Shown: positions 23,436 through 52,033 of the stretch, one piece after another | Layout: each line of letters begins with the position of its first letter | Position numbering within the stretch: the first letter of the stretch is position 1 | Notes under the pieces: generated by a model | Seen by the model: only the letters and a program-made list of their open reading frames with translations | What the model was told of the DNA's origin: nothing | Databases searched by the model: none | Translations under genes and position numbers: made by a program | Assembly (NCBI GenBank): GCA_043753995.1 | Contig: JAYUVP010000077.1 | Span: 55-64,054, forward strand | Direction: 5' to 3' | Length of the DNA: 64,000 nucleotides | From: Fibrobacterota bacterium | GTDB taxonomy: Bacteria > Fibrobacterota > Fibrobacteria > UBA11236

Positions 23436-24596
23436 TTACGAGTCGAGCAGCCGTCGTAGGGCGTGCAGCAAGTCCGCCGACCCATAGGGTTTGGGCAAAA
23501 TTTCGAGCTTTGCGGGAAGCTGGGAGGCTTCGGCTTCGCTCATGGATCCGCCTAGGAGAATGATGGCGCGCGCATGACCACTATCCAATAATTCAGCCCC
23601 GACCTCCACGCCGTCCAAACCCCGTGGACGGCGCTCCAAGATGGCCGCATCGAAATCCGATGCCGCTGCGATGGAACGCGAGTCGGTGAATTCAGCGACG
23701 ATATAACCGCCTTGCTGCATAATCCGGCGAGTGAGCCGGCGTACGGCATCATCACTTTCAACCAAGGCTATTTTCTCGCCTTTCCCGCGCGGGGCGGCTA
23801 GCGATTCAGCAGCTTCGGATACGTGGGCCGCAATGGGACTGGCAGGAAAGTAAAGCGCGAAAATACTGCCTCGACCCGCCTCGCTGGTGACGCGCAATCC
23901 CCCATCCAATTGCTGCATGATGCCAAAAACCGTCGAAAGCCCGAGGCCGGTGCCACGGCCCTTGGCCTTGGTCGTAAAGAAAGGTTCGAAGAGATGAGCC
24001 ATCACTTCAAGGCTCATGCCCATGCCATTGTCTTCCACATTCACCACAATGAATTCGCCTGGTTGGGGCTTCAAGGGAGCGGAATCGGCCCAAGCCTCTA
24101 CGACTTCCCGTTTCAAGGTCAAGCGCACTTGGCCTCCCTTGGGCATTGCATCGCGAGCATTGACGACCAAGTTGATGATGGCTTGCTCAGCCAGGCTGCG
24201 ATCGAGGCGGGCAATCATGGCCTCTTCCGACGGTATGAGTTGCAAGCTGATTTGCTTGGGGAGTAGGCGTCCCAATAGTTTTTCCATGTCCGAAAGCATG
24301 GGACGGGTATCTTGGGCGCGAATATCGGCTATTTGCTTACGGCTGAAAGCCAGCAATTGCCGCGTGAGGGCGGTGCCCTTTTCCCCAGCCTTGCGAATTT
24401 CCTCAGCCATTTCGTGATTTGGATCACTTTTCGACATCACGCTCATGAGCAAATCGGCATAGCCATTGATGGCCGTCAGCAAATTATTGAAATCATGCGC
24501 CACTCCGCCGGCCAGACGACCCAAGGCTTCCATTTTCTGGCTTTGCCGCTTGGCCTCCTCGGCGTCCATGGCTGCGGGACTCGGAAAATCAGTCAT
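23436..24596 (-). CDS. hybrid sensor histidine kinase/response regulator
   Basis: HisKA H-box (GGVAHDFNNLL), HATPase_c motifs (DNGMGM, GTGLGL) and a C-terminal receiver domain. Probable ATG at 24596 (MTDFPSP), 13 nt after the OMF stop. Confidence 0.75.
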   Translation of the reverse strand: MTDFPSPAAMDAEEAKRQSQKMEALGRLAGGVAHDFNNLLTAINGYADLLMSVMSKSDPNHEMAEEIRKAGEKGTALTRQLLAFSRKQIADIRAQDTRPMLSDMEKLLGRLLPKQISLQLIPSEEAMIARLDRSLAEQAIINLVVNARDAMPKGGQVRLTLKREVVEAWADSAPLKPQPGEFIVVNVEDNGMGMSLEVMAHLFEPFFTTKAKGRGTGLGLSTVFGIMQQLDGGLRVTSEAGRGSIFALYFPASPIAAHVSEAAESLAAPRGKGEKIALVESDDAVRRLTRRIMQQGGYIVAEFTDSRSIAAASDFDAAILERRPRGLDGVEVGAELLDSGHARAIILLGGSMSEAEASQLPAKLEILPKPYGSADLLHALRRLLDS

Positions 24597-24609
24597 GCGG
24601 CAAAAGTAT

Positions 24610-25938
24610 TCAGGGGAATGCGGAAAAGGCACCGGCGGCCCGGAGAATTTGCAAATCGCGATCCCGGCAATCGAACAATTGCCCAACGGATTGTTTGACC
24701 GCCGAGAGATATCGCTCCTCATTCAAGTGCACTTCAACTTGCGAAACGCCACCGGCACGAAGGCGCTCCATCATGAGCCGTGCCGATTCGGCAGCCAAGG
24801 CGCGATTGCGACGCTCCAACCCCAAGGCTTCGCGACAGCCACCCATTTGCGATGCGGCCCGGTCTAAATCGACCTTGGCTTTTTCCAAGGCCCAGGCGCT
24901 TCGCCATACGGTTTCACGTGCCAAGGCACGTGCCTGACGCGCAGCTTCCGGCAAGGATCCGAAACTGATCAAGTTCAAGCGGACTTGCGCTCCCACCGAA
25001 GTGCCCAGGGCTTGATTGTAAGCTACCAGGCCTGCTTCAGCCTTGTTCAAGGAGTAGTTATAACCCGCCGTTAAGCTCAACTTGGGCCAAAGTTCAGACA
25101 GGGAATTTTTCCATCCCGCTTGGGCTAAGCGCTCGCCTAAACGACTGCGACGCACCTCTATGGATTGCTCGCTGATTTGCTGATTCAGTTTTTGCGCGTC
25201 GCGACTGGGTGGATCGCCTGGATCACTCAAGGCCGCAGCCAAGGTGACCAGGGAACTTTCCGCCTCAGCGGTTTGAGGGGCTTGTAACCACTGGGCCAGA
25301 CCTCGCCAAGAATTCGACAAGGCCTGACGGGCGCGAATTCGCGCTGCCTGCTGGGCCAGCAAGTCTGCTTCAGCAGCTAATTCTTCTTGCCTTGAAATAC
25401 CACCCGCCGCTCGCATGGCGCGCACCAACCTTAATCTTTCTTCGGTGAGCATCACCAAGGTGTCGGCGGCTAAACTCAATTCCCGATCGCGCAAGACGCC
25501 GTAATAGGCTCCGGCAGCTTGCAAAGCCACTTCCAATTTGACTTCATCCAGGCGCAAGGCGGCCAGGTCGCGTTGCAAGCCCAATTGCGAGCGAAGCGCC
25601 GGCGTCTTTAAGCCTTCAAATACCGTCCAGCTTCCATTGATGCCCGCCGTATAAGCCGTGGAAACGGCACCGTTTTTCACCGAATCGGCGGTCGAGCCTA
25701 GGCGGCGCACACGCGTGTCCTGCAGGTTTTGATTGACTCCCGCGGTGGCGTCGATTCTGGGCCAGGCTCCCGCCTGATTCCAGGTGACTGAAGCTTCCGC
25801 GCGCGCCAGGGCTTCGCGCTCGGCTAAAACCAGGGGGTTGCGCTCTTGTGCGGTTTGAATGGCCTCCTCCAGCTTAGTCGGCCATCGAAAAGGTCCTTCC
25901 TCAGCTATTCCCAAACGGACACCACCCAGCAAGACCAT
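24610..25938 (-). CDS. outer membrane efflux factor (TolC family); start uncertain, in-frame with the upstream RND gene
   Basis: About 443 aa C-terminal part of the 1506-aa track ORF. Has the paired coiled-coil/beta-barrel repeat character of OMF proteins. The first in-frame ATG gives MVLLGGVRLG. Confidence 0.6.
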   Translation of the reverse strand: MVLLGGVRLGIAEEGPFRWPTKLEEAIQTAQERNPLVLAEREALARAEASVTWNQAGAWPRIDATAGVNQNLQDTRVRRLGSTADSVKNGAVSTAYTAGINGSWTVFEGLKTPALRSQLGLQRDLAALRLDEVKLEVALQAAGAYYGVLRDRELSLAADTLVMLTEERLRLVRAMRAAGGISRQEELAAEADLLAQQAARIRARQALSNSWRGLAQWLQAPQTAEAESSLVTLAAALSDPGDPPSRDAQKLNQQISEQSIEVRRSRLGERLAQAGWKNSLSELWPKLSLTAGYNYSLNKAEAGLVAYNQALGTSVGAQVRLNLISFGSLPEAARQARALARETVWRSAWALEKAKVDLDRAASQMGGCREALGLERRNRALAAESARLMMERLRAGGVSQVEVHLNEERYLSAVKQSVGQLFDCRDRDLQILRAAGAFSAFP

Positions 25939-28900
25939 CAAGCCAACCAGGGTCGCCAGCTTACCCTGCCAGCCGGGTTTCGTCCCGGGACCGTTCCCTA
26001 CCGGTGACGTCTCAGGGCCGTGACCTGCATTCGGAGCCTTGCCGGCGAGATAGGTATACAGGGCCGGGATGATATAGAGGGTAAGCACCAAACTGAAAAG
26101 CAAGCCACCCACCACGGCCACGCCCATGGGAATGCGGCTTTGCGATCCCGCTCCCAAACCCAAAGCAATAGGCAAGGTGCCTAAGGCAGTGGTTAGGCTG
26201 GTCATCACAATGGGCCGAAAGCGCGAGGCCGATGCGGAAAGAATGGCCTCGCGCAAAGGCAGGCCTTGTTCACGTCGCTGATTGGCGAATTCGACAATGA
26301 GAATGCCGTTTTTCGTCACCAAGCCGATGAGCATGATGAGACCGATTTCACTAAAAATATTCAGTGTTTGGCCGGTGAGCCGAAGCGAAGCCAAGGCACC
26401 GAAAAGCGCCAAGGGTACGGTCAGCATGACCGTGAATGGATGCCGAAAGCTTTCGAACTGAGCGGCAAGGGTGAGGTAAACCATGATCAGAGCCATAAGA
26501 AAAGCAAAAAGCAAGCTGCTTTTGCTTTCGGCGAAATCACGCGAAGGACCGTTTAAAGCCGTGGTGAAGGACGGCCCTAAAACTTGGCCGCCGATGCGCT
26601 GCATGGCGGCTATGCCTTCGCCCATGGTCTTGCCGGGAGCCAAGCCTGCCGATACGGTCGCCGATACATAACGGTTGAAGCGATAACGCTGGGGCGGCCC
26701 GCTTTGCTCGTTCAGGCGAACCAAATTGGCAAGCGGCACCAAGTTACCGCTCTGGGTACGCACGGGAACCGCGAGCAAATCCGAAGGCTCATCGCGAAAT
26801 GGCGCATCCAATTGAGCCACTACATTGAATTGCCGGCTGTCCTTGATGAAATAATCGATGCGAGTTTCCCCATAGGCCGCCTGCAGGGACTGGGCTACAA
26901 CACCCACCGATGCCCCCAAGGATCGAGCCCGGTCGCGATCGACATTCACGCGCAATTGCGGACGGTTGAATTTGAGGTTTTCGTCGACCACGACAAAGGT
27001 GGGATCTTTACGCGCTTCCTCCAGGAATTTCGGTAATACGGACCGCAAGGATTCAAAGTCGGGCGCTTGAATCACAAGTTGTATGGGAAGACCGGCGCGC
27101 GTACCCACCTGAATGGTTTGATCCTGGCTGGCGAAGGCGCGCATGTCCGTCATGCCACGCAAGGCGCCCCCCAACAAATCGGCGATTTGCTGCTGACTGC
27201 GCTGGCGTTCCTCAGGATCGACCAGAATCAAACGCATGAAGGCGCCATTCGAACCGCCGCCGCCGACAAATCCAGGAGACGTGACGGAAAGAACATTCGC
27301 CTCCGGTACAATATTGGAAACCATATCCACTAACCGTACCACGGTGGCATCCATGGCGGCATAGGAGGTGCCTTCCGCCGTGGAAGCGGTGACATTGATA
27401 ATGCTTCGATCTTCTAGTGGGGCCAATTCACTCTTGATGGTGGTCATCAAGGCATAGGTGCCCACCATGGTCGCTACGAGTACAACCCAGGCGACGATGC
27501 GAATATTGAGAAAAGCCTGCAAGGACTTGCGATAACCGTTGATGAGTCCTTCGAAAAAAGGCTCGGTGCGATGATAAATCGAATTGACGCCGGGACGGCG
27601 TAAGAGCCGCGCGGATAGCATAGGCGTCAAAGTGAGTGAGACGAAGGCCGAGATCAAAACCGATCCCGCCAGCACGATGCCGAACTCACGAAAGAGCCGC
27701 CCGGTAAAGCCACCCAAAAACATGATAGGCAGGAAAATCACCACCAGAACCAAGGTCGTGGCCAAAACTGCGAAAAAAATCTCACGCGATCCGCGAAAGC
27801 CCGCTTGCATGGCCGGCTCGCCTTTTTCAACTCGAGCATAGATGGCCTCAAGCACCACGATGGCATCGTCCACGACAAGGCCAATGGCCAAAACCAAGGC
27901 CAAAAGGGTGAGCACATTGATGGTGAAGCCAGCCAAATACATGATGAAAAAACCACCGACCAAGGAAATGGGAATGGCCAAGGCGGGGATGATAGCGGTA
28001 CGCCAACTGCGCAAAAACAGGAATAAAACCAGCAAAACCAGAACAAAGGCGATGGCAATGGTTTCGCGCACTTCGAGTACCGACCTCTCAATGAAACGCG
28101 TATTGTCGAAAGCGATTTTGAGACGTATGTCCTCGGGAACCTCTTTCTTTAATTTCTCAAATCGCTGATAAAAATGATGGGCAATCTCCAGGGCATTGGC
28201 ATTGGGTTGGGTGATGAGGGCGAGACCCACCATGGGAATCCCATTCATGCGCAAAAGGGTACGCTCGTTTTCGGAACCAAGCACAACGCGACCAATATCG
28301 CTCACGCGCACGGCGCCTTCGGGTTTGGAACTGATGATGATATTGCCGAATTCTTCCGGAGTCGACAATTTTGCGGGAGCCACCACACTCAATTCGATTT
28401 GCGGTCCTTCCAGTCGCCCAGAAGGCAATTGCAAATTGTCCTGACGCAAGGCTTGGCGAACATCGTCCAGGGTAAGGCCCCGCGCTGATAGCTTGAAAGG
28501 ATCCAGTAATAATCTCATGGCATAGCGGCGCTCGCCCCAAATGCGCACTTCAGCTACGCCCGGAATGGTTTCCAGCTTTTCCTTGAGATGGGTGCCGACT
28601 TCATTCACTTCCAGCAAGGGCCGCTTGTCGCCTTGAACCGTCATCACCAAGATGGGAAAGGAATTGGCGTCGGCCTTGGCAACTGTCGGTGGATCCGCAT
28701 CCGCGGGCAAAGAGCGCAGCACACGGCTGACTCGATCGCGGACGTCATTGGCCGCTGCGTCGAGATCGGTGGCGATATCGAATTCCACCGTGATTTGACT
28801 ACGGCCCTCCTGACTGGTCGAACTCAAATTGCGAATGCCGTCTACGCCATTGATTGAGGCTTCGAGTGGCTCGGTGATTTGAGTTTCGATGACATCGGCA

Positions 28901-29130
28901 ACGGCACCGGCATAGGTGGTGGTGACCGTAATGGTGGGTGGATTGACGGCGGGAAATTCACGCACGCCCAAAAACCCGAAAGACACGGCACCAAGCACCA
29001 ATAAAAAAACGGACATGACCAGAGTGAGCACAGGCCGCCTTATGCACAAGGCACTCAAAGTGTTGCGCGAAGCTGCGTCTAGCTGGGCCTCTTTTTCAGG
29101 ATCCATCTGATTCAATGCGTCTTGCTGCAT
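25939..29130 (-). CDS. RND efflux permease (AcrB/HAE1-like)
   Basis: About 1060 aa with 12-TM RND architecture. No stop codon precedes the OMF-like region, so the boundary is inferred from typical RND length. Confidence 0.75.
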
Positions 29131-30224
29131 CAGTTCACCTGGGTCACGACAATGGAAGCATTGGGGCGCAGGGACATGGTCCCGGAAACGATGACGGTAT
29201 CCCCTGCGTTAACACCCGAAAGAATTTGCACGGCAACCGGAAGTCGGCCACCCAAGCGCACGGGACGAGGCACGGCCTTGCCGCCTTGGGCAAGAAAAAC
29301 CATGGCACCGGCTCCAGCCATGGAAATGGCGGAGGGTGGGACCACCAAGGCCGAATCCCCGTCCCCGCCTCCCAAAATGACTTCGCTAACGGCGCCAGGA
29401 ATCAAATTCATGCCTTGCTTCGGGGTTTTAACATAGGCGCGAACCACCAAGGCCCGTGTGCTTTCGTCTAGCCTGGGTTCCATGGCATAGATTTCGGCCG
29501 ACAGGGTATCGGTTCTTCCTGTCGCTAAAAAGTGGACGGGAAGCCCTTGCCGCACTCGCCAAGACTCCTGTTCGGGCACGGAAAATTCCAGCTTCATGCG
29601 AGACAGGTCTTGAATGGTGGTGATGCGCGTGCCGGGCTGAACAAAGGCACCGCGATACAGAGGTAACAGGCCAGCTACCCCAGGAAAGGGAGATTTGATT
29701 TGGGTTTTGGCCAATTGAGCTTTCAGCAAGGCGGCGTCGGCCTCAGCTTGGCTTTTTTCTGCGGAGGCTTGGTCAAAATCCTTAGCGCTGGCTGCGCCCG
29801 CGTCCAATTGCTGCTTGATACGCGCCTCTTGGGTGATGGCCAGCTTCAGGCGAGCTTGCGCCCTTTGGAAGTTCGCGCGCACTTCAGCATCGTCTATTTG
29901 AACCAGGACTTGCCCGGCGCGCACGGCCTTGCCTTCGGAAAAATCAATGCGCTCCACCCGTCCGGAAATTTCACTGCGTACTTCGACTTCTTGATTCGCA
30001 AGCAAGGTGCCATTCACCGAAAGCGGTGCCGAAAAAACTTGGCTACGCAAAACCAAGCCCGTCACCTTGGTCGGAGGCGCACCCGCTGGGCCACCGGGTT
30101 TCGCAGCAGGGGCGCCGGCAGGCGATCCACCCACGGCAGGACTCTCCGATTTTTTTTGGCAGGCATTCAGTCCAACCAGAAAAAGGCAGGACAAAATCAG
30201 GATTCGGTATTTGAATTTGGACAT
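29130..30224 (-). CDS. RND efflux periplasmic adaptor (membrane fusion protein)
   Basis: 364 aa. Lipoprotein signal (LVGLNAC). HlyD/biotinyl-like and beta-barrel regions. Overlaps the RND start (TGATG). Confidence 0.75.
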   Translation of the reverse strand: MSKFKYRILILSCLFLVGLNACQKKSESPAVGGSPAGAPAAKPGGPAGAPPTKVTGLVLRSQVFSAPLSVNGTLLANQEVEVRSEISGRVERIDFSEGKAVRAGQVLVQIDDAEVRANFQRAQARLKLAITQEARIKQQLDAGAASAKDFDQASAEKSQAEADAALLKAQLAKTQIKSPFPGVAGLLPLYRGAFVQPGTRITTIQDLSRMKLEFSVPEQESWRVRQGLPVHFLATGRTDTLSAEIYAMEPRLDESTRALVVRAYVKTPKQGMNLIPGAVSEVILGGGDGDSALVVPPSAISMAGAGAMVFLAQGGKAVPRPVRLGGRLPVAVQILSGVNAGDTVIVSGTMSLRPNASIVVTQVN

Positions 30225-30337: not shown

Positions 30338-30718
30338 ATGAAATGTCACTTTAATTTCACTACCCAAAAATGTCGTTTATTTGTTTGCTTCATTTGCCTT
30401 GGCATGGCTTTTCTTGTAGGCTGCACCGAAGAGGCCGTGGATGATTCCACCTTGGCTTTATCGACTTTGCCCACCACTTTGAAAGTCGGCGACACAAGCC
30501 AATCCGCGACTTGCTCCAAATCCTCCCGGGATGCTGCGGGCCGCATGAAAACCACTGAGAATTATTTGCAATTCACTCTGGTCAGCGAAGACACGACCGT
30601 GCTGAAACCCGTCGCGGGTCGGCGATTGGTTGCCCTCAAATCCGGAACAACCAAGGTTCACGCCAAGGACGTGAACCGAAGCCTGAGCAGCGATGCGCAA
30701 ACCGTCAAGGTGGAATAG
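30338..30718 (+). CDS. small lipoprotein with Ig-like (Big_2-like) domain
   Basis: 126 aa. Lipobox LVGC. Confidence 0.4.
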   Translation: MKCHFNFTTQKCRLFVCFICLGMAFLVGCTEEAVDDSTLALSTLPTTLKVGDTSQSATCSKSSRDAAGRMKTTENYLQFTLVSEDTTVLKPVAGRRLVALKSGTTKVHAKDVNRSLSSDAQTVKVE

Positions 30719-30759: not shown

Positions 30760-31854
30760 TTAGCCAGGCAAAGGTGGAGGAATATGGGTGAGTAAGGCCC
30801 CGAGTTCCGAAACGGTCTCGGCCTTGATCCATTCGGCGGTCCCAGGCTTCCAAACCAAGGTCTGGCGCTGAAGCTGGCCCTGGGCTAGCAATTGTCGCAA
30901 GCCAGCCTCATCGAATGGCCCTTGTGGTTTCCCCGCGACTGCGACATGATAGCACAGTCCAGGTAACGGAGGCGGGACGTGACTCATGGGAGACGTTCCT
31001 CCGGTGATTCCCTGGGCGACTTGTTGTCCCAAGGCCAAGCCAGCGCCTGCTCCGGCGAAAGTCCCTGCCAATCCACCGGGCTGGGCCAAAGCCTCGCCTG
31101 CTTTATCCGCGACATTGAATTGCAAATAGGCCGTGGTATTTCCGATGACGCCCATACCCGTTCGTTTGTCGATGAGGCGTTCAACTTCGGGTGGTAGCGA
31201 AATGTTCTCCACCACCAATTGCTGGCATTCCAAACCGAATTGCGAGAATTTAGGAGCCAGAACCCCGCGCACTTGCTCGCCGATTTCCAGGTATTTGGCG
31301 GCCAAATCGAAAGCTTGGATTTTGGCTTCTCCCAAGGCATCGGAAAGCGCGCTGACCACCAGGCCTTTCACCTGGGGGTCCAGATCCTCGCCATGCACCA
31401 CTTCCTTGGTGCCGACAAAGGTCTGGTAAAAGGTTTTGGCATCGGCGACTCGCCAGGACAGCATGCCGAAGGCGCGGATGCGCACCACGCCCAATTCCGC
31501 GTCTCGCAGCATCACAGGATTGCTAGTGCCCCATTTGCGGTTAGCGTGAACCACGCCATTGATGAAATAAACTTCAGCCTTGAAGGGCGAGTCGAACAGA
31601 TATTTCCAACCCTTGAGAGTGGAAAGGACAGGCAAGTTCTGGGTCGAAAGGGTATAGGTCCCGGGACCGAAGACATCCGCAATCTGGCCCTCGTTCACAA
31701 AAACCGCGCTTTGTCCCTCACGCACAATGAGCTTCGCACCCATTTTGATTTCATTGTCATGCCTAGCAAAGCGATGCGATAGCGTATCCCCTTGATCGAA
31801 GGTCCATTCGATGATGTCAATGAATTCGCCTTTAACGCTTTTCCACAAATCCAT
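30760..31854 (-). CDS. SPFH/Band-7 family protein (Band_7_1 type) with C-terminal DUF4339/GYF-like domain
   Basis: Probable start MDLWKSVKGEFIDIIEW (typical Band_7_1 N-terminus). C-terminal GPFDEAGLRQLLAQGQL..TLVWKPGTAEW motif. Confidence 0.6.
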   Translation of the reverse strand: MDLWKSVKGEFIDIIEWTFDQGDTLSHRFARHDNEIKMGAKLIVREGQSAVFVNEGQIADVFGPGTYTLSTQNLPVLSTLKGWKYLFDSPFKAEVYFINGVVHANRKWGTSNPVMLRDAELGVVRIRAFGMLSWRVADAKTFYQTFVGTKEVVHGEDLDPQVKGLVVSALSDALGEAKIQAFDLAAKYLEIGEQVRGVLAPKFSQFGLECQQLVVENISLPPEVERLIDKRTGMGVIGNTTAYLQFNVADKAGEALAQPGGLAGTFAGAGAGLALGQQVAQGITGGTSPMSHVPPPLPGLCYHVAVAGKPQGPFDEAGLRQLLAQGQLQRQTLVWKPGTAEWIKAETVSELGALLTHIPPPLPG

Positions 31855-31865
31855 GGCTATTCCTT

Positions 31866-33344
31866 TCAAGTCACGTGATCCAGCACCCAATGCAGGGCGG
31901 GATTATTCAGGGTTTCTCCGCAATATTGGCAACGAGCCTGTTCGGAACCGCCTACCGGGGCGCCGCATTGAGGGCAATTCAAAGAATTCAAAGGACTGCT
32001 CATGCCGGTGCCGACGCTTTTGGTAAAATGCAAATCCAAGTCTTGGGGCTGTAAATCCGGTAGCATGGTATTGCGACCCGATACAAAACGCACACGTATG
32101 CCTGCACGAATGAAGCCATCCTCCACGACCACGGACTGCATTTCAACTTTGCCAACCGCGAGACGCTGTAGTGACCGGGGAATCCAGGTTGCCGTGCCTT
32201 GTTGTAGCGCAGCAACCAGGGACTCGGTGGCATAAGGCCGTAAAAGTCCTGGCCGGTTTTGCAATAATGCTTGGATTAAGCGCACAAAAACCGTGGCGGC
32301 GCGATCTTCCAACTCTTGAGCGGAAAGGGGATCGCCTTGGGTTTGCGATTCGACCAAGGCCGCATCCCACGTTTGCGATGGTTCACGCCATTCATCGCTT
32401 TGGGTGATTTCGGCCAATACCCAATCGTAGGCACCGGAATTGAGCATGGATCCGCATTGATGGCATTTTACCCCTTGGCTCTCCCGCAAAGAAGCGCCGC
32501 AATGGAGACATTGCTCACCATATTCCGAAGATTCCGAATTCCCCCCTGTGGGTCGTATTTTGCGCGTGAAAGACCATACCTCAGAAAATTGCGAGGGCTC
32601 GGGCCAATGCTCCGGGGCAGCGTCGTTGGCCCGGGTTTCCATATCGCGAAGAGAAGCGTCGATGCGAATATTCACGGATTCATAAGCGCCAGCGCTTCGT
32701 TCACTAAGAACTTGGGCATTGTGGAGTTTGGGATCCCTCACCCAATTGCGTCGGTTTTCTCGGTGCATCAAATCCAACTGTATTTCCCAACGGGAATGAA
32801 CCCCATCGGAAACCAAGTGATGCACGCGTTCTAAATCGCGCACCGACCAAGCCATTTGTATATCGACGAAAATTTTTGGCAAGGCCCGCAATAATCTTTG
32901 GGTGGCTGGAGAAAGGGCCGCGGGCTTGACTTTGATTTCCTTTTCCCGAAAAATCGACTTGCCGGACATTGTCGAATTTAGGGCCGCCCAATTCACTTCT
33001 GAGTACCGCTTAGCTCCCCGCCGTCGTTGGATGCGAACGAAGATTATCCAAACGAATAGAAGCACCAGGGCAAATACAACCAAGGTCAGAACCGAACCGC
33101 CTCCGCCTCCACGATCGGCATAAGGAGAGGGGCCATAATCCCGGTGAGAAGGAGTGGAAAATTGAAAGCCATCACTGGATCCGGAGGATGAGCTGGAGCC
33201 ACCGCTGTGATAGCCATCCCCCCCACCAGCGCGCGCCCAAAGGGTGATTGCCGAAAGACCCAAAATAGCGGACGTAGCTTGCGCACCCCTCCCGATATTC
33301 CGGGCATTTGGATTCGATAATTCAGGCGGATGTCGGCGGGTCAT
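31866..33344 (-). CDS. membrane protein with Gly/Ser-rich N-terminal region, one TM, two CxxC..CxxC zinc ribbons and Tim44-like domains
   Basis: CLHCGAS..CHQCGS and CPQCGAP..CQYCGET ribbons. TM helix VLTLVVFALVLLFVWIIFV. Immediately upstream of the SPFH gene. Confidence 0.5.
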   Translation of the reverse strand: MTRRHPPELSNPNARNIGRGAQATSAILGLSAITLWARAGGGDGYHSGGSSSSSGSSDGFQFSTPSHRDYGPSPYADRGGGGGSVLTLVVFALVLLFVWIIFVRIQRRRGAKRYSEVNWAALNSTMSGKSIFREKEIKVKPAALSPATQRLLRALPKIFVDIQMAWSVRDLERVHHLVSDGVHSRWEIQLDLMHRENRRNWVRDPKLHNAQVLSERSAGAYESVNIRIDASLRDMETRANDAAPEHWPEPSQFSEVWSFTRKIRPTGGNSESSEYGEQCLHCGASLRESQGVKCHQCGSMLNSGAYDWVLAEITQSDEWREPSQTWDAALVESQTQGDPLSAQELEDRAATVFVRLIQALLQNRPGLLRPYATESLVAALQQGTATWIPRSLQRLAVGKVEMQSVVVEDGFIRAGIRVRFVSGRNTMLPDLQPQDLDLHFTKSVGTGMSSPLNSLNCPQCGAPVGGSEQARCQYCGETLNNPALHWVLDHVT

Positions 33345-40969: not shown

Positions 40970-43900
40970 TTAACCCACATGGAAATTTCCGCTTTGCTGC
41001 CAATAATTCATGGCATCGGCAAGATTGTCGCCCTCAATTTGAGTTTGACCCAGGGATTTTGCGCGCTTTTCAATTTCCTTCATGACTATACCCCGAATAA
41101 AGGAAGGGATTTTCATGGCTCGTGCCATGGCCTCTTCACTCCAGGGCATGGTCACCACCTGCTTGGCGCTGCCATCTCCCCAACTTTCATATTTATCCCC
41201 CATCACGGAAAAATCCACATTCACTTGGCCATGGGCTCGCGCCCATTTTTCCACGCGAAGACGAGTCATTTCTCGCATAAATCCTTCGGGTACGCGCTGC
41301 AAGCGAGATAAAGCGTCTTCATTCCAATACAGCATTTGCGTAGCGGAGGCGGAAGCCGCGTGGCGTTTTTCTGGGGAGAGGGCCATGAAAACCGATTTAC
41401 CGCAATTGGGGCAAGCATGGGGTTTCTCACCATCGAGGACAAGGCCACAAAGATGGCATTCCCAATGCACCGAGGCCTCAGCAATCTTTTCGGTTTCGTG
41501 TGGCTTGGCTTCGCCTAGGCCCTTGGAGGCCATGGCCTCACGCATGATTTCTCGCGCCTGGCCTAAACCCGCCTCGATGATTTCGAGGGTCACCGTGCCA
41601 AGTCCGCCTTGACGAGCATGCTTTTCAATGGTGCTCTTGGCGGCATGACGCATGAAGCCAGCAGGGACTTTTTCCAAACGCTGTAGCGCGGTCTCGGTCC
41701 AAAGCAATTCACCGATCGTGGTGGCGGGAGCCGGGGCGGCAGTAGGTGCAGGGGCGGCCATTGCCGAGGTTGCGGAATTCGATCCGAAGTGAGACACACC
41801 CAGCGCGGCTTCAACTCTTTCCAAGGTGACGCTGGACTGATGGTCGGCCATGGCTCGCTTCTCGATGCGATTGCGCAATTGCTGACGCTCAAAGGCATCA
41901 CTGACTTGGTCCAGCCTCCCCAAGGCTTGAGGGTCCCAACGAAGCTGACGCTCGCCCAAGGTATTCTGGGTTTCGCCAGTAGCCCCCGGAGCATCGCCCA
42001 TCAATTTGAATAGTGTTCCATCACGCCCACAAACCGGGCAGCTTTGGGGACGCAGGTTTTGATGCACATAACCGCATATGGGACAGCGATAGCTGAGAGA
42101 AATGGTGTCGAGATTGGCAGACTCGGCTTTTTGCTTGGCTTCCAAATTGAGCCCCATGCGCGCCAAGGCTTCGGCGGGCAAAATGGCCTTGAGGGCGGCA
42201 TGCAATATCGCCTCACTGACCACGGTATGGCCTTCGGCAATGCAATAATTCGCGATGGCCTTCATAGCCATAGGCCTCGCCATGGCAGGAACACCCTCCA
42301 GTTTGGCCTTGGCCTCGACCGTCCAAGCCACGGTCTCTTCGGCTTGAAATTCCACTGGAGGCTTGGCCTTGGACTCGGTCACCAAAACATTGAAACCGCA
42401 TTGACGCAAAATATTTTCGGTATTGCTGCCTAGGTCCATGCCTTCTTCGCTATGAAATCCGGTTCGCCCAAGCACCACCAACCAAGGCTGTAGGCTCTCG
42501 GTGAATTGCAGGATTTTTTCGAAAGGCTTGCCGTCCAGCAGGCGAGTCTCCACGGTGAGGTTTTCGCGTTCGGCGAGCCGCGCTGCGATATTCAGATAGC
42601 TCTGATAAATTTTAGCGAGGCCCGAATCGATAATGTCCTCATGCAGCTTTTCCTGCTCTTCGAACTTGAAAACCTTTCGGGCTTTATCGGTTAACGCGGT
42701 ATTCAAGCTCTTGAACATGGCATAGTGAAAATAAGGATCGAATGCGGACACCGCAATAATGCGCTTGCCGAAAGCTTTGGCGAGGGCAAAGGCACGGTAC
42801 AATCCACCCCAACTGCGCTCGCTACCGTCTAAACAAACAACGATTGCGTCGCCATGATTTTCTTCCTCGGTCCGCTTGACCACGAGAAAATCGCGGGCCA
42901 CGCGGCGCAAGGTGCGCTCGGTCACGGATCCCAATTGCGAACGCCCCACGCGGCCAATGCCGAAGCCTCCGAAGGCGATTAAGTCATGCGAATGGCCATT
43001 GATGTCCTCGACCAGCTTTTGCCAGTTTTTTCCTTCAAGGGAAACGGGTACATAGCTCAGGCCTTCGCGCGCACAGGCTTTGGCCATGACTTCCAAATAG
43101 GAATCCGTGATGAGTTCCAACCCTTTAGTGATCAAGCTATCGTGAATTTTCCTTTGCTTCTCCAATTCCTGCTCTTGCTGATATTCTGGAGGCAAACCAC
43201 CTTCCATGGCACGGAAGCGATTGTCATGCATTTTCGCGGCATAGACATGGCTGCCATGCAATTTCGCGTCGAAGACCTGGCCCATTTTCACCGCGATTTC
43301 CGTTGCGGCATTTGCCAAGGGCGAGGAATCGAGCCCGACATAAACGCTACGATAGCGCGTCAAATCGACTGCTTCACCCTGTGAGTTCGAGGGCGAAGGG
43401 GATGGAGTAGGGGTCGCTGGCTTTGAAGAATGATCGGCCAAGGGAGTCGGCGCGCCTCCATGCTTCGCATCTTCATCAGGACCCTGGCGTTCCATCACTT
43501 CACGAGCTTCTCGCACCACTTGCTGGGTGATGCGTTTGAAGTCGCGACGGCGCGCATATTTTTCAATTTGCTCGGTGATGAATTGACGAATCATGCCGGG
43601 AGCGCGATTCACCGACTCCATGGCATCGGCATCCCATTCCAAACCGCCATGGCTGGGTAAATGCACGATATTGTTCGTTTTTTCAGGGACACGGAAAGGC
43701 GTTTTGTCCTGAACTTGATTTACCCAAAGGATATAGGCATGAGGAAATTCATGCTGCGCAATATGAAAGCTATCGAATTCGAACATGGTCCGCGCCAAAC
43801 GAATGAATTCATGGCGAGGATCTTCAGGGCCAATGACTTCCACGACGGTATCGACTTGAAAACTCATATAGTCCGGGGCATTCCCCGTATAATGTAAGGA

Positions 43901-44413
43901 CGCCACCGGATTGCGACGCAAATTCTGATAGGTGGTGCGCTCGAATATTTCCAAAGTCGTCAAGGCACGATAATCAATCACATCACGACGAAAATAAAAT
44001 TTGGAAACCGCCTGAATACGCTCAGCTAGCGATTCTTGCCAGGGGCGGCCCTTGGTTTTTTCCATGATGCCGCGAAAGAGGTGAATATAATGCTGCAAAT
44101 ATTGGGGCTTGGGAATGAGACCCACGCCTTTATTTGAACAGTTGAAAGGGAAATCCTTGCTTTCATTGAAGGTCACCATGACCGGTAAATGCGAGGCGTG
44201 GAAAAGGGGGGCGCCTTTCAGCAATAATTTATCGTAAACACCGCGACGCCCTTGCTCTAGCCAGGCAATGACATTTTCAGGCAAGGGCATCAAGGGCAAT
44301 TCACGCTCCCCCCCGAGTAATGGCGCGGTCACGGTATTCTCACCGACTCGAACTTGCGGCTGGGGCAAGGCCCCCCTTTCAGTATCCGTCCAAGGCAATT
44401 TCTGCGCGCTCAT
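40970..44413 (-). CDS. 1147-aa multidomain protein: N-terminal domain of unknown fold, tandem universal-stress-protein-like domains, two rubredoxin-like zinc ribbons and about five PCP_red-like repeats
   Basis: Zinc ribbons CPICGYV..CPVCG and CHLCGLV..CPNCG. Repeated W(T/N/S).EA..RL.R.P.F.R......E..A...G motif recurs at least four times. Confidence 0.5.
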   Translation of the reverse strand: MSAQKLPWTDTERGALPQPQVRVGENTVTAPLLGGERELPLMPLPENVIAWLEQGRRGVYDKLLLKGAPLFHASHLPVMVTFNESKDFPFNCSNKGVGLIPKPQYLQHYIHLFRGIMEKTKGRPWQESLAERIQAVSKFYFRRDVIDYRALTTLEIFERTTYQNLRRNPVASLHYTGNAPDYMSFQVDTVVEVIGPEDPRHEFIRLARTMFEFDSFHIAQHEFPHAYILWVNQVQDKTPFRVPEKTNNIVHLPSHGGLEWDADAMESVNRAPGMIRQFITEQIEKYARRRDFKRITQQVVREAREVMERQGPDEDAKHGGAPTPLADHSSKPATPTPSPSPSNSQGEAVDLTRYRSVYVGLDSSPLANAATEIAVKMGQVFDAKLHGSHVYAAKMHDNRFRAMEGGLPPEYQQEQELEKQRKIHDSLITKGLELITDSYLEVMAKACAREGLSYVPVSLEGKNWQKLVEDINGHSHDLIAFGGFGIGRVGRSQLGSVTERTLRRVARDFLVVKRTEEENHGDAIVVCLDGSERSWGGLYRAFALAKAFGKRIIAVSAFDPYFHYAMFKSLNTALTDKARKVFKFEEQEKLHEDIIDSGLAKIYQSYLNIAARLAERENLTVETRLLDGKPFEKILQFTESLQPWLVVLGRTGFHSEEGMDLGSNTENILRQCGFNVLVTESKAKPPVEFQAEETVAWTVEAKAKLEGVPAMARPMAMKAIANYCIAEGHTVVSEAILHAALKAILPAEALARMGLNLEAKQKAESANLDTISLSYRCPICGYVHQNLRPQSCPVCGRDGTLFKLMGDAPGATGETQNTLGERQLRWDPQALGRLDQVSDAFERQQLRNRIEKRAMADHQSSVTLERVEAALGVSHFGSNSATSAMAAPAPTAAPAPATTIGELLWTETALQRLEKVPAGFMRHAAKSTIEKHARQGGLGTVTLEIIEAGLGQAREIMREAMASKGLGEAKPHETEKIAEASVHWECHLCGLVLDGEKPHACPNCGKSVFMALSPEKRHAASASATQMLYWNEDALSRLQRVPEGFMREMTRLRVEKWARAHGQVNVDFSVMGDKYESWGDGSAKQVVTMPWSEEAMARAMKIPSFIRGIVMKEIEKRAKSLGQTQIEGDNLADAMNYWQQSGNFHVG

Positions 44414-45768
44414 GAAGCACTCCGATGAATTTGATTTTCCATATTGACTTTAGCGTTTGGCTTGGGCATGTCGGCGCGCAGCGAGCCGAGCATGGCGCGA
44501 ACAAAGGCGGGAGGTTCGGATCCGGCGTCAAAGCCCAGGCCGTATTTGGCTTGGGACTCAGCGCGATGCCTTTCCATCATAGCCACCGTGATGGGTGCTC
44601 TTTCCCGCTTGGACCTTTCTTCGAGGCGTTTTCTTACCAGTGATCGAATAAATAGAGGCAAGCGTTTGAGGCGTTCCTGCGCTTCCTGAGTCCACATCGC
44701 CTCGAATTCCCCTGCCTCTCGCAGCGGCTGAATCACAATTCCACCCTTAGGCTGATAATCGCAATTGGGATCTTCTCCCATCAGTACGCCGGTTTGCGCA
44801 AGCGCGCGGGCTCGACATCCCCCGCAAAGCAATTTGTATTCGCAGGCACCGCAACGTCCTTGCAATAGTTCCGGCTTGCGAAAGCTTTGGAACAAAACCG
44901 ATTCATCCCAGACTTTCCAAAAACCTTCGCGCAACAAATGCCCGCCGGATAATTCCATATACGGGCAGGGAGTGATATCCCCTTCCGGAGTGATGCGTGC
45001 ATAATGCGTCGCCGCGGGACAGCCGCCGCCATCATAACCTTCGGCGCGCGTGAAAGACGATTGCGCATCGGCTTCATAGAGTATGCGCTTGAAATGCGGA
45101 GTGCATCGGCTTTGCACCATGAGGCCAGGCATTTCCTTCTGAATGCGCACGATGCGCATCAAGGCTTGTTCGTACTCAGCTGGCTCCAAATCCAAGGCGG
45201 GATTGCCACGGCCCACACAAACCAAGAAAAAGAAATTCACCAAGGAAGCGCCGAGGTCTTTCGCCATCAAGGCGACATCTTCCATCTCGCCATGATTGTG
45301 GCGTGTGACCGTGAAATGCACTTGGGCATGCACGCCATGCTTGGCACAAAGACGAATCGACTCGCAAGTCTTTTCAAAAGCACCCGTGACGCCACGAAAG
45401 GCATCATGCCCCGCGGGATGGGAAGCATCCAGGGAAATTCCGGCGCCTTGCAAGCCGGCCTCTTTCAAAGCGAGCAAGCGTTCTTCATTCAGCAAAAGGC
45501 CATTGGTGCCGAGGACCATGCGCAAACCCGCTTGCGAACCCGCAGAGACAAGCCGAACAAGGTCATAGCGCAGCAAAGGCTCACCACCGGTGAGGACCAC
45601 CATGGTGCCTGGCGCCCTTTCGGCCAAGGAAAGGAAGAATCGCTCCCAATCCTCAGTCGATAATTCCCCGGATCGCGTCGCCATACGCGAATTCGCGTCG
45701 AGATAACAATGGTGGCATGCCAGATTGCATCGTCGCGTAAGGTTGGCCGCCACCAAATAAGGCAACAT
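44410..45768 (-). CDS. radical SAM enzyme with SPASM-type auxiliary cluster domain and C-terminal PCP_red-like tail
   Basis: CNLACHHC (CxxxCxxC). Additional Cys clusters (CGACEYKLLCGGC). C-terminal WTQEAQERLKRLPLFIRSLVRKRLEE matches the repeat of the downstream giant protein. Confidence 0.7.
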   Translation of the reverse strand: MLPYLVAANLTRRCNLACHHCYLDANSRMATRSGELSTEDWERFFLSLAERAPGTMVVLTGGEPLLRYDLVRLVSAGSQAGLRMVLGTNGLLLNEERLLALKEAGLQGAGISLDASHPAGHDAFRGVTGAFEKTCESIRLCAKHGVHAQVHFTVTRHNHGEMEDVALMAKDLGASLVNFFFLVCVGRGNPALDLEPAEYEQALMRIVRIQKEMPGLMVQSRCTPHFKRILYEADAQSSFTRAEGYDGGGCPAATHYARITPEGDITPCPYMELSGGHLLREGFWKVWDESVLFQSFRKPELLQGRCGACEYKLLCGGCRARALAQTGVLMGEDPNCDYQPKGGIVIQPLREAGEFEAMWTQEAQERLKRLPLFIRSLVRKRLEERSKRERAPITVAMMERHRAESQAKYGLGFDAGSEPPAFVRAMLGSLRADMPKPNAKVNMENQIHRSAS

Positions 45769-51532: not shown

Positions 51533-52033
51533 TCATGGCTTGGCCCCGCTCAAGGACGCGGTCTGGTATTTCAATTGGGTTTTCATATTGACGGTCGCAC
51601 TTCCACCCAAACTCTGCAAATAGGCGATGACGCAAAGAATTTCTGCATCGCTGAGCCCAACGGGTGGCTTATTGATGGTGGGCATACCTGCACTAAAGCC
51701 CGACACGAGAAAAATATTGGGCTCATAAAGGCTTTCCGCCAAATAATCCACATCACTATAACCCGGCTTGCGATGCTTGGCCGTCTCTCCCACACCCGCC
51801 AAATCTGGAAAACGTAAGGATCCGGAGGCGCCGAGAGTGTGGCATGCCATGCAGGTTCCCTTGCCTCCGACGATTTCTTGTCCGGCCGCCACCATTTCCT
51901 CAACACCCATGTCGGGATTCAGTACGCGCTCTTTAGGAGGATGCACTTCGGCTTGTGGCACCATATGCCCGACATAGGTGTAAAAAGCGGTGACCAGTAA
52001 GGTGAATAAAGCGAGTTGAATAGCGTTTTTCAT
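51533..52033 (-). CDS. membrane-anchored c-type cytochrome
   Basis: N-terminal TM. CMACH motif. Confidence 0.65.
   Translation of the reverse strand: MKNAIQLALFTLLVTAFYTYVGHMVPQAEVHPPKERVLNPDMGVEEMVAAGQEIVGGKGTCMACHTLGASGSLRFPDLAGVGETAKHRKPGYSDVDYLAESLYEPNIFLVSGFSAGMPTINKPPVGLSDAEILCVIAYLQSLGGSATVNMKTQLKYQTASLSGAKP

What the first reader, a model, noticed from the sequence alone, without database searches (positions are those of the whole stretch)
24610..29130. RND permease and TolC-like outer membrane factor read as one 1506-aa ORF with no intervening stop
- The AcrB-like permease (about 1040 aa expected) continues in-frame through ...GKLATLVGLMVLLGGVRLGIAEE... into an OMF-like protein (about 443 aa).
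- The junction segment K-LATLVGLMVLLGGV looks like a signal-peptide h-region or an extra TM helix.
- The only in-frame ATG leaves a poor signal peptide (MVLLGGVRLG).
- Possible explanations are a genuine permease-OMF fusion, an internal non-ATG start for the OMF, or a lost stop or frameshift.
Basis: seen in the sequence. Interest (0 to 1): 0.55.

Follow-up and report, generated by a model that had tools for sequence, protein, structure and literature searches.

The report
Efflux pump and exit channel fused
One gene here really does encode both an inner-membrane drug-efflux pump and its outer-membrane exit channel as a single protein, joined by what looks like a leftover export signal that is probably cut to release the channel; relatives in several bacterial groups carry the same fusion, and I found no paper describing it.

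Summary
The 1506-aa ORF (24610..29130, minus strand) is real. It is an AcrB-type RND permease (aa 26-1028), a roughly 30-aa basic or low-complexity linker, a 14-19-aa hydrophobic segment ending in G-I-A|E-E, and then a complete TolC-type outer membrane factor (OMF).

It is not an assembly error, a pseudogene or a hidden two-gene arrangement:
- Syntenic orthologues at 92 %, 68 % and 66 % identity have the same in-frame junction.
- dN/dS against the closest orthologue is 0.038 for the permease part and 0.040 for the OMF part, with no indels.
- More than 40 further fused clusters exist in Fibrobacter, Kapabacteria/Chlorobiota, Flavobacteriales and a Deltaproteobacteria MAG.
- Several of these have no possible in-frame start codon before the hydrophobic segment.
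- The window's only in-frame ATG is Ile in its nearest orthologue.

The junction has no conserved sequence. It always keeps signal-peptide anatomy: basic residues, a hydrophobic core of about 13 aa, and small-x-Ala. It aligns with the signal peptide of separately encoded OMFs in unfused sister operons.

Best reading: a polyprotein whose internal signal peptide acts as a 13th membrane pass and is cut by signal peptidase I, releasing the OMF. Cleavage is inferred, not shown. This is a new variant of a known system and is moderately interesting.

The parts
29130..30224 (-). Periplasmic adaptor (MFP) gene, 364 aa. It is a lipoprotein (N-terminus MSKFKYRILILSCLFLVGLNAC|QKK). Its TGA stop overlaps the ATG of the fused gene by 1 nt (TGATG).
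   Evidence: TIGR01730 RND_mfp 217 bits, and HlyD_D23/HlyD_3. Sequence read.
24610..29130 (-). Single ORF encoding the RND permease-OMF fusion (1506 aa plus stop).
   Evidence: Fused orthologues.
26041..29130 (-). RND (AcrB/HAE1-type) permease part, aa 1-1030, ending with TM12 (...LTLYIIPALYTYLAG). The proton-relay motifs VVDDAIVV (TM4), VTKNGIL (TM10) and SRFRPI (TM11) are visible.
   Evidence: PF00873 covers 26-1028 at 924 bits. NF033617 scores 1041 bits. Motifs read from the translation. dN/dS 0.038 against L012.
25960..26040 (-). Cytoplasmic linker, aa 1031-1057 (KAPNAGHGPETSPVGNGPGTKPGWQGK). It is low-complexity and Gly/Pro-rich, with Lys residues just before the hydrophobic segment (n-region-like).
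   Evidence: Modelled as disordered, pLDDT below 50. Only 7-27 % identity among fused homologues, yet K+R is 3-5 in every linker. dN/dS for linker plus h-region is 0.29.
25903..25959 (-). Internal signal-peptide-like segment, aa 1058-1076 (LATLVGLMVLLGGV-RLGIA). It is the proposed 13th membrane pass (N-in, C-out). The predicted signal peptidase I site is after A1076 (G at -3, A at -1), between nt 25903 and 25902.
   Evidence: Aligns with the cleavable signal peptide of separately encoded OMFs. The nearest orthologue has ASA|ED at this position. Motif statistics.
24613..25902 (-). Mature TolC-type outer membrane factor, aa 1077-1506 (430 aa). The stop codon is at 24610-24612.
   Evidence: PF02321 OEP x2. 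The AF2 model has 4 beta-strands and long helical hairpins, with pLDDT above 90 in the core. Foldseek against PDB hits TolC, ST50, CusC and OprM at E about 1e-20, TM 0.70-0.78 over about 430 residues. dN/dS 0.040.
23436..24596 (-). Downstream hybrid histidine kinase / receiver gene. The probable true start is ATG 24596, 13 nt after the fused gene's stop. It is conserved next to the pump in all four orthologous loci.
   Evidence: HisKA, HATPase_c and Response_reg. Start positions. Synteny.

Best explanation
**What it is.** The locus is a two-gene tripartite efflux operon. It has a lipoprotein adaptor (MFP) gene, translationally coupled to a gene that encodes the inner-membrane RND permease and the outer-membrane channel (OMF) as one polypeptide.

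**Likely origin (inferred).** The ancestor was an MFP-RND-OMF operon in which the RND stop and the OMF start overlapped (TGATG, as still seen in a sister lineage). A small indel removed the stop and joined the frames. The OMF's own signal peptide was kept and became internal.

**Proposed mechanism.**
1. The permease inserts co-translationally, with its C-terminus in the cytoplasm after TM12.
2. The basic linker stays in the cytoplasm.
3. The short hydrophobic segment (aa 1058-1071) enters SecYEG in N-in/C-out orientation, like a 13th pass. It starts translocation of the 430-aa OMF domain, much as the permease's two large periplasmic loops are translocated.
4. Signal peptidase I cuts after G-I-A (A1076).
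5. The freed OMF goes to the outer membrane by the usual chaperone/BAM route and trimerises.
6. The permease keeps a C-terminal tail with the leftover hydrophobic segment.

The result is an ordinary MFP-RND-OMF pump whose permease and channel are made in strict 1:1 ratio, matching the 3:3 stoichiometry of the assembled pump.

**Shown:** a single conserved ORF, both halves under purifying selection, signal-peptide anatomy conserved at the junction, no usable internal start in several homologues, and a complete TolC fold.

**Inferred:** membrane orientation of the extra segment, cleavage and its exact site, outer-membrane targeting, and the selective advantage.
For: 1. **Real and stable fusion.**
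   - The syntenic orthologues L012 (82.5 % nt identity, zero indels over 1506 codons), L001 and L013 all carry the same in-frame junction.
   - Identical fused proteins were assembled independently. P0054 is on 7 contigs and P0129 on 21 contigs.
2. **Both halves are functional in one frame.** dN/dS is 0.038 for the RND part and 0.040 for the OMF part, at dS about 0.9-1.4.
3. **Recurrent.**
   - There are 10 fused hits among the best 120 homologues.
   - Further fused 50 %-identity representatives appear.
   - There are 23 fused 90 %-identity clusters in uncultured Fibrobacter, including the query P0152.
   - Taxa include Kapabacteria/Chlorobiota, Flavobacteriales, Fibrobacter and a Deltaproteobacteria MAG.
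4. **Several changes of fusion state.**
   - In the RND-part tree the window's fused clade is sister to unfused permeases (93 % bootstrap).
   - An exclusive clade of all fused proteins has 0 % support.
   - The window's OMF part is closer to stand-alone OMFs (49 %, 37 %, 33 %) than to the OMF parts of other fused groups (19-23 %).
5. **No separate OMF gene** sits next to the fused genes. The modules are MFP plus fused gene, sometimes with MarR.
6. **The junction is a signal peptide.**
   - It aligns with the signal peptide of separately encoded sister OMFs, e.g. L008 MGKRLLPICILNFALCALPSLSSA|QPNLTLDQAL.
   - Its hydrophobic core has a median of 13 aa, against 12 aa in 94 stand-alone OMF signal peptides.
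   - A small-x-Ala motif follows within 10 aa in 12-13 of 15 fused proteins, against 18 of 96 hydrophobic cores in the permease parts (Fisher p = 6e-6).
   - The Fibrobacter set shows textbook boxes (PHTASA|I, PQTANA|L, PAPAFA|Q) in every junction that was correctly windowed.
   - This holds although the segment is only 7-27 % identical between homologues.
7. **An internal start is not the mechanism.**
   - L002 and L004 have no in-frame ATG/GTG/TTG between TM12 and the hydrophobic core.
   - The window's ATG1065 is ATT in L012, while the -3/-1 motif is kept (GIA to ASA).
8. **Geometry (inference from the known TolC/AcrAB-TolC architecture).** Only about 10 residues separate the hydrophobic segment from the first OMF helix. 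Extended, that is under 40 Angstrom, far too short for an uncleaved tether to let the beta-barrel reach the outer membrane.
9. **Precedent (my own knowledge).** The Bradyrhizobium japonicum fbcH gene yields cytochromes b and c1 from one precursor via an internal signal sequence. I confirmed only the reference (Thony-Meyer et al. 1991 PNAS 88:5001), in the reference list read.
Against: - There is no direct evidence of cleavage, such as proteomics or N-terminal data, and no dedicated signal-peptide predictor was available. The motif statistics come from my own simple pattern and hydropathy scripts.
- In the window the segment LATLVGLMVLLGGVRLGIA could be read as a 19-residue helix interrupted by Arg.
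- Two fused homologues (P0053, P0067) lack Ala at -1.
- Some homologues keep an in-frame Met just before the hydrophobic core (L001; P0324, P0325, P0328, P0329). Additional independent initiation cannot be excluded there.
- The selective advantage (stoichiometry or coupling) is speculative.
- The trees are NJ on limited sampling, so the number of independent fusion events is uncertain.
Confidence: 0.7

Rival explanations
1. The fusion is genuine but not cleaved. The hydrophobic segment would be a permanent 13th transmembrane helix, and the TolC-like domain would stay covalently attached to the permease.
For: - The ORF is continuous and conserved.
- AF2 draws the segment as a helix, at low confidence.
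- In the window the uncharged or hydrophobic stretch can be extended to 19 residues.
Against: - The hydrophobic cores are signal-peptide-sized (median 13 aa) and are followed by conserved small-x-Ala boxes. A permanent anchor would have no reason to keep these.
- Only about 10 residues link the segment to the first OMF helix. A complete TolC fold with its beta-barrel strands could not reach the outer membrane. This is inferred from the known dimensions of TolC and AcrAB-TolC.
Confidence: 0.12
2. There are effectively two proteins. The OMF would be made mainly by independent translation initiation inside the ORF (TTG1064 or ATG1065 in the window), and the read-through fusion product would be a tolerated by-product.
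For: - In-frame TTG/ATG codons exist in the window's junction.
- L001 and some Fibrobacter homologues keep a Met just upstream of the hydrophobic core.
- At least one annotation pipeline called a separate TolC protein inside a fused gene (HRK04199.1).
Against: - ATG1065 and TTG1064 are ATT and CTG in the nearest orthologue.
- Starting there leaves a 7-residue h-region with no n-region, and no Shine-Dalgarno-like sequence lies upstream.
- L002 and L004 have no start-like codon at all before the core.
- With no stop codon, every ribosome translating the permease must continue into the OMF.
- The split-off 411-aa 'TolC' annotation lacks a signal peptide altogether.
Confidence: 0.08
3. It is an artefact or a dead gene: a sequencing or assembly indel, or a recent mutation, that destroyed the permease stop codon in an ordinary RND-OMF gene pair.
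For: Unfused sister operons have the RND stop and the OMF start overlapping by 1 nt. A single small indel would therefore produce exactly this picture.
Against: - The same junction appears in independent assemblies and in orthologues at 92, 68 and 66 % identity.
- There are no indels, and dN/dS is 0.04 in the OMF part at dS above 1.
- Dozens of fused clusters hold hundreds of member sequences.
Confidence: 0.02

Closest known systems
Tripartite RND efflux pumps with an MFP-RND-OMF operon (MexAB-OprM type; AcrAB-TolC as the structural reference)
   Same: - All three components are present in the same gene order.
- The MFP is a lipoprotein.
- The permease matches the AcrB family profile end to end and keeps the proton-relay motifs.
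- The C-terminal part has the TolC/OprM fold.
- The nearest unfused relatives (Fibrobacterota MAGs) have exactly this three-gene layout.
   Different: - Permease and OMF are one ORF, joined by a linker and an internal signal-peptide-like segment.
- The OMF part is a non-lipoprotein type.
- NCBIfam subfamily cut-offs are not reached (1041 bits against 1250 for RND_permease_2; 68 against 225 for type_I_sec_TolC), so it is not assignable to any named equivalog.
[quoted passage not shown] 1991)
   Same: One gene encodes a polytopic inner-membrane protein, then an internal signal sequence, then a protein that must be exported across the inner membrane. The two are separated after translation. The content is from my own knowledge. 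Only the citation was verified, because the paper is not held.
   Different: - The proteins are unrelated.
- Cytochrome c1 stays in the inner membrane, whereas here the released part must travel to the outer membrane.
- Cleavage is demonstrated for FbcH and only inferred here.
Gene fusions inside the RND superfamily and its pumps: SecDF of Thermus thermophilus, and engineered AcrA-AcrB fusions used for structural work
   Same: Components that are separate in most organisms are joined in one chain. SecDF fusion is described in the review PMC8277102.
   Different: These fusions join two inner-membrane or periplasmic partners and are not cleaved. None joins an inner-membrane transporter to an outer-membrane channel. 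The large 2021 review contains no mention of a natural RND-OMF fusion in the text held, which is the first 300,000 characters.

Membership tests
RND permease, AcrB/HAE1 type (Pfam PF00873 ACR_tran) | End-to-end match to the family profile (12 TM segments plus two large periplasmic loops) above the curated cut-off. | tested here: met
   PF00873 scores 924.5 bits against a cut-off of 28, covering aa 26-1028 and profile positions 2-1020 of 1021.
RND permease, AcrB/HAE1 type (Pfam PF00873 ACR_tran) | Proton-relay residues in TM4, TM10 and TM11 (AcrB D407, D408, K940, R971). | tested here: met
   The motifs GLVVDDAIVV, LVTKNGILIVEF and SRFRPIVMT were read in the translation. Equivalence to AcrB positions comes from motif recognition, not from a formal alignment to AcrB.
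NCBIfam RND_permease_2 (NF033617) and named equivalogs (AcrB, MdtB/C, OqxB and others) | Score above the curated whole-protein cut-off. | tested here: not met
   Best score is 1041.5 bits against a cut-off of 1250. All equivalogs are far below their cut-offs. It is a divergent HAE1-like permease, not a named orthologue.
Outer membrane factor, TolC/OprM type (Pfam PF02321 OEP) | Two tandem OEP repeats. | tested here: met
   PF02321 scores 95.6 bits against a cut-off of 22, in two stretches from aa 1087. TIGR01844 matches aa 1156-1501.
Outer membrane factor, TolC/OprM type (Pfam PF02321 OEP) | Protomer fold: four beta-strands contributing to a trimeric barrel, plus long alpha-helical hairpins and an equatorial domain. 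| tested here: met
   AF2 model with mean pLDDT 79 and core above 90. Strands at model residues 95-112, 119-141, 320-334 and 340-354; long helices at 145-211, 217-252, 362-429 and 434-469. Foldseek against PDB hits TolC 1ek9, ST50, CusC and OprM at E 1e-17 to 1e-20, TM 0.70-0.78. Trimer formation was not tested.
Outer membrane factor, TolC/OprM type (Pfam PF02321 OEP) | N-terminal Sec signal peptide on a separately translated precursor. | tested here: not met
   The signal-peptide-like segment is internal (aa 1058-1076), preceded by 1057 residues of the same ORF. No conserved start codon exists. This is the feature in which it departs from the family.
Signal peptidase I substrate (cleavable Sec signal peptide) | Basic n-region, h-region of about 7-15 hydrophobic residues, and a c-region with small uncharged residues at -3 and -1. 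| tested here: met
   The window has ...K-P-G-W-Q-G-K / LATLVGLMVLLGGV / RLGIA|EE. Core median is 13 aa in 15 fused proteins. Small-x-Ala occurs in 12-13 of 15, against 18 of 96 permease cores, p = 6e-6. All correctly windowed Fibrobacter junctions have A/S/V-x-A. This was pattern-based only; no SignalP-type predictor was available.
Signal peptidase I substrate (cleavable Sec signal peptide) | Actual cleavage by signal peptidase I. | not testable with these tools
   This needs expression and Western blotting, N-terminal sequencing or proteomics.
Bacterial membrane polyprotein with an internal signal sequence (FbcH-like logic) | A single ORF, an internal signal sequence after a polytopic membrane protein whose C-terminus is cytoplasmic, and two mature products. 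| tested here: inconclusive
   The first two points are met. The existence of two mature products is inferred, not observed.

The most novel reading that the evidence does not exclude
This would be a naturally occurring, repeatedly evolved 'pump plus exit duct' polyprotein. An inner-membrane RND transporter and its outer-membrane channel would be translated as one chain. They would then be separated by signal peptidase I at an internal signal peptide that first serves as a 13th membrane pass. That would fix a 1:1 subunit supply and remove the need for a separate initiation event. It would be the first natural case of an inner-membrane and an outer-membrane component of a trans-envelope machine encoded in one polypeptide. 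It would also be a rare bacterial example of signal-peptidase-processed membrane polyproteins. The fusion state appears to have changed several times, in Fibrobacterota, Bacteroidota/Kapabacteria and at least one deltaproteobacterial lineage.
Probability: 0.65. Interest if true: 0.65.

Novelty: new variant of a known kind. Interest (0 to 1): 0.5.

Why it matters
- **Annotation.**
  - Pipelines currently label these proteins simply 'efflux RND transporter permease subunit'.
  - Some split off a signal-peptide-less 'TolC family protein' instead.
  - The OMF of these pumps is therefore either missed or mis-modelled.
- **Biology.** If cleavage is confirmed, this is a natural experiment on how tripartite pumps control subunit stoichiometry. 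It would also show how Sec and signal peptidase handle an internal signal peptide after a 12-TM protein.
- **Evolution.** The fusion state has changed several times while the junction kept only its physico-chemical signal-peptide features. That shows how overlapping stop/start gene pairs (TGATG) can collapse into polyproteins without loss of function.
- **Limits.** It does not reveal a new kind of machine. The end product is most likely a conventional MFP-RND-OMF pump.

Tried and rejected
- **Word-indexed protein search with the C-terminal 477 aa.** It was swamped by low-complexity words and returned only one contig-truncated fused hit. I replaced it with the exhaustive HMMER search.
- **Genome-contig scan with the OMF part.** It returned only two distant OMFs, from Gemmatimonadota and Bryobacteraceae. 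Assignment to Fibrobacterota is inferred from the nearest named homologues and the DUF4423 neighbour.
- **Look-up of the window's own protein contig.** It is not on record.
- **Sequence search of the OMF part against PDB chains.** No hit at E <= 0.01. The fold search was needed.
- **Literature.** No description of a natural RND-OMF fusion in the held library. Absence from this library is not proof of absence.
- **FbcH paper.** Not held; only its citation was verified.
- **Promoter and terminator scans around the operon.** No better than shuffled controls, so uninformative.
- **My first hydropathy segmentation.** It merged adjacent permease TM helices, and in 6 of 23 Fibrobacter proteins it caught or merged TM12 instead of the junction. 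TM-length comparisons from it should not be over-read. The motif counts are the usable part.
- **Also considered and dismissed.** An overlapping OMF start in another frame is excluded because both other frames are closed. Programmed frameshifting or read-through is unnecessary because there is no stop.


Full report
**Observation**

The window has one ORF at 24610..29130 on the minus strand. It is 1506 aa long and starts with ATG.

- Pfam places a full-length AcrB-family permease at aa 26-1028 (924 bits, profile 2-1020 of 1021). Two OEP repeats follow from aa 1087.
- NCBIfam agrees, but no named equivalog or subfamily cut-off is reached.
- Between the end of TM12 and the OMF part, the only in-frame start-like codons are TTG1064, ATG1065, TTG1067 and TTG1073. 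Both other frames are closed by stops.

**Context**

- Directly upstream is a 364-aa RND adaptor (MFP) with a lipoprotein signal (LFLVGLNAC|Q). Its TGA overlaps the ATG of the fused gene by one base, as TGATG.
- Downstream is a hybrid histidine kinase. It most likely starts at ATG 24596, 13 nt after the fused gene's stop.
- A DUF4423 protein and a 456-aa protein without Pfam hits follow.
- There is no separate OMF gene at the locus, and no other efflux component turned up among the window's other large ORFs that I scanned.

**Is the fusion real?**

A search of the 5.8-billion-protein collection returned the window's own protein. It also returned full-length fused homologues at 68 % and 66 % identity (P0002, P0003), and seven more at 43-47 %.

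- The loci of P0002 (L001), P0003 (L013) and P0122 (L012, in the same 90 % cluster as the window) are syntenic with the window. The shared genes are the SPFH/GYF gene (in L001 and L012 only), the MFP, the fused gene, the histidine kinase, DUF4423 and a protein of about 445-480 aa.
- Against L012 the gene is 82.5 % identical in DNA, with no indel over 1506 codons.
- Nei-Gojobori dN/dS is 0.038 for the permease part, 0.040 for the OMF part, and 0.29 for the linker plus hydrophobic segment.
- Both halves are therefore under equally strong purifying selection in one shared frame.
- Other fused types were assembled independently many times. P0054 is on 7 contigs and P0129 on 21.

This rules out a sequencing artefact or a pseudogene.

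**How widespread is it?**

- An exhaustive HMMER search with aa 961-1506 found further fused representatives: P0152, P0161, P0218, P0254, P0264, plus contig-truncated ones.
- The names attached to cluster members place them in several taxa:
  - Fibrobacter sp.
  - Flavobacteriales MAGs (39 members)
  - a Deltaproteobacteria MAG
  - Ca. Kapabacteria thiocyanatum (OJX59702.1, UniRef A0A1M3L330)
  - Chlorobiota/Bacteroidota MAGs
- A search with the Fibrobacter representative P0152 found 22 more fused clusters of 1455-1468 aa, some with over 100 member sequences.
- Cultured F. succinogenes and the UWB strains have an unfused 1018-aa permease.
- Fused loci are consistently MFP plus fused gene, sometimes preceded by MarR, with no separate OMF gene.

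**One origin or several?**

- The window's permease part is 76 % identical to its fused orthologues. It is 61-62 % identical to unfused Fibrobacterota permeases, and only 55-58 % identical to the other fused groups.
- The OMF parts of different fused groups are only 19-23 % identical to the window's.
- The window's OMF is closer to stand-alone OMFs: P0146 at 49 %, and the OMFs of unfused sister operons L007 and L008 at 37 % and 33 %.
- In a bootstrapped NJ tree of permease parts, the window's fused clade is sister to unfused permeases with 93 % support. An exclusive clade of all fused proteins has 0 % support.

The fusion state has therefore changed several times. Independent gains are the simplest reading. 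The sampling and the method are limited.

**Anatomy of the junction**

In every fused protein, TM12 (...IPALY...) is followed by three elements:
- a short basic or low-complexity linker with K+R of 3-5;
- a hydrophobic core with a median of 13 residues;
- a polar stretch of a few residues ending in small-x-Ala.

The cleavage-like boxes vary but keep this form:

| Source | Motif |
|---|---|
| Window | GIA\|EE |
| L012 | ASA\|ED |
| L001 | AKA\|F |
| Kapabacteria type | VSA\|Q |
| Fibrobacter | PHTASA\|I, PQTANA\|L, PAPAFA\|Q |

The first conserved OMF helix begins about 10 residues later.

- Sequence identity in this segment is only 7-27 %, so what is conserved is the physico-chemical pattern.
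- The core length equals that of 94 stand-alone OMF signal peptides (median 12).
- The small-x-Ala motif is far more frequent here (12-13 of 15) than after hydrophobic cores of the permease parts (18 of 96; Fisher p = 6e-6).
- In the unfused sister operon L008, the OMF starts with MGKRLLPICILNFALCALPSLSSA|QPNLTLDQAL. This aligns with the window's junction. Its ATG overlaps the permease stop as TGATG.

The junction is therefore best read as the OMF's ancestral signal peptide, made internal by loss of the stop codon.

**Internal start?**

- L002 and L004 have no in-frame ATG, GTG or TTG between TM12 and the hydrophobic core.
- The window's ATG1065 and TTG1064 lie in the middle of the core. They have no Shine-Dalgarno-like sequence upstream, and they are ATT and CTG in L012.
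- L001 and a few Fibrobacter proteins keep a Met just before the core, probably a fossil of the old start.
- With no stop codon, ribosomes translating the permease must continue into the OMF.

Independent initiation cannot be the general way the OMF is made.

**The C-terminal part is a complete OMF**

- An AlphaFold2 model of aa 1031-1506 used an 11-sequence alignment and has a mean pLDDT of 79, above 90 in the core.
- It has two pairs of long beta-strands, each followed by helical hairpins of about 65 residues.
- The linker is disordered, and the hydrophobic segment is an isolated low-confidence helix.
- Foldseek against the PDB gives TolC, ST50, CusC, OprM, VceC, CmeC and MtrE at E 1e-15 to 1e-20, with TM 0.7-0.78 over about 430 residues.
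- A plain sequence search of the PDB found nothing.

**Mechanism**

An RND permease ends in the cytoplasm after TM12. This is established AcrB topology.

1. A following short hydrophobic segment with basic residues on its N-terminal side should insert N-in/C-out. It should then start translocation of the OMF domain through Sec, as happens for the permease's own two large periplasmic loops.
2. The core is signal-peptide-sized and is followed by conserved -3/-1 boxes.
3. Only about 10 residues (under 40 Angstrom extended) link it to the first OMF helix. The OMF barrel must sit in the outer membrane, across the periplasm. This is an inference from known TolC and AcrAB-TolC dimensions.
4. Cleavage by signal peptidase I after A1076 is therefore the most coherent reading.
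5. The released OMF would follow the normal route to the outer membrane. The permease would keep a C-terminal tail with the leftover segment.

The outcome is a conventional tripartite pump with permease and channel supplied 1:1. Cleavage, orientation and localisation are inferred. I put this model at about 0.7. The alternatives are an uncleaved 13-TM tether (about 0.12), mainly internal initiation (about 0.08), and an artefact or dead gene (about 0.02).

**Comparison with what is known**

- The components and gene order are those of MexAB-OprM-type operons. The difference is the single ORF with an internal signal peptide.
- The logic resembles the B. japonicum fbcH cytochrome b/c1 precursor. 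That content is from my own knowledge. I verified only the citation, because the paper is not held.
- The 2021 Chem Rev review of tripartite systems mentions SecDF and other fusions, but no RND-OMF fusion in the text held.
- Targeted term searches found no description.
- Public databases already hold these proteins under generic names. At least one pipeline split off a 411-aa 'TolC family protein' lacking a signal peptide.

**Verdict**

The finding is a real feature and a new variant of a known kind of system. It is of moderate interest. It matters for annotation. If cleavage is confirmed, it would be a natural example of an inner-membrane/outer-membrane polyprotein processed at an internal signal peptide.

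Noticed in passing
window 40970..45768 (-): A 1147-aa ORF (40970..44413) carries five PCP_red (PF08369) repeats, two Usp domains, a rubredoxin-like domain and DUF7130. Directly upstream (44410..45768) is a radical SAM/SPASM protein that also has a PCP_red domain. Cytochrome c genes (47539..48492; 49202..50716, with an EB_dh-like part) and a 679-aa Cyt_bd_oxida_I-like protein (52030..54069) lie nearby. The architecture is unusual.
   Followed up: no
window 30338..30718 (+): A 126-aa ORF diverges from the MFP gene and has no Pfam hit. An ORF of similar size sits at the same place and in the same orientation in the orthologous loci L001 (123 aa) and L012 (128 aa). It could be an uncharacterised regulator or a small membrane protein of the pump locus.
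   Followed up: partly
window 23436..24722 (-): The mechanical ORF of the hybrid histidine kinase overlaps the 3' end of the fused gene by 113 nt. ATG 24596, 13 nt after the stop, matches the spacing in the orthologues (14-25 nt) and is the likely true start.
   Followed up: yes
public records HRK04199.1, HHX15050.1, OJX59702.1, MGB2040432.1 (clusters of P0054, P0152, P0067, P0254): Annotation of fused genes is inconsistent. Some are named only 'efflux RND transporter permease subunit' (1454-1505 aa). One was split so that a 411-aa 'TolC family protein' without any signal peptide is called. One partial 1252-aa protein is named 'TolC family protein'.
   Followed up: partly
P0179 / P0322 (Deltaproteobacteria MAG), junction ...PGAMLLLAFLASCLFKRDILAEE...: The hydrophobic segment of this fused homologue contains L-A-S-C, which resembles a lipobox. 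This raises the possibility of an internal lipoprotein-type (signal peptidase II) site in some fusions.
   Followed up: no
window 30760..33344 (-), and L001 1..6445: An SPFH/Band_7 + GYF_2 protein (in L001 and L012) and a Tim44-like protein (with a double zinc ribbon in the window; Tim44 also in L012) are conserved next to the pump operon. In L001 a conventional three-gene OMF / CusB-like MFP / RND operon sits just upstream of the SPFH gene. The same organisms therefore also use separately encoded OMFs.
   Followed up: no
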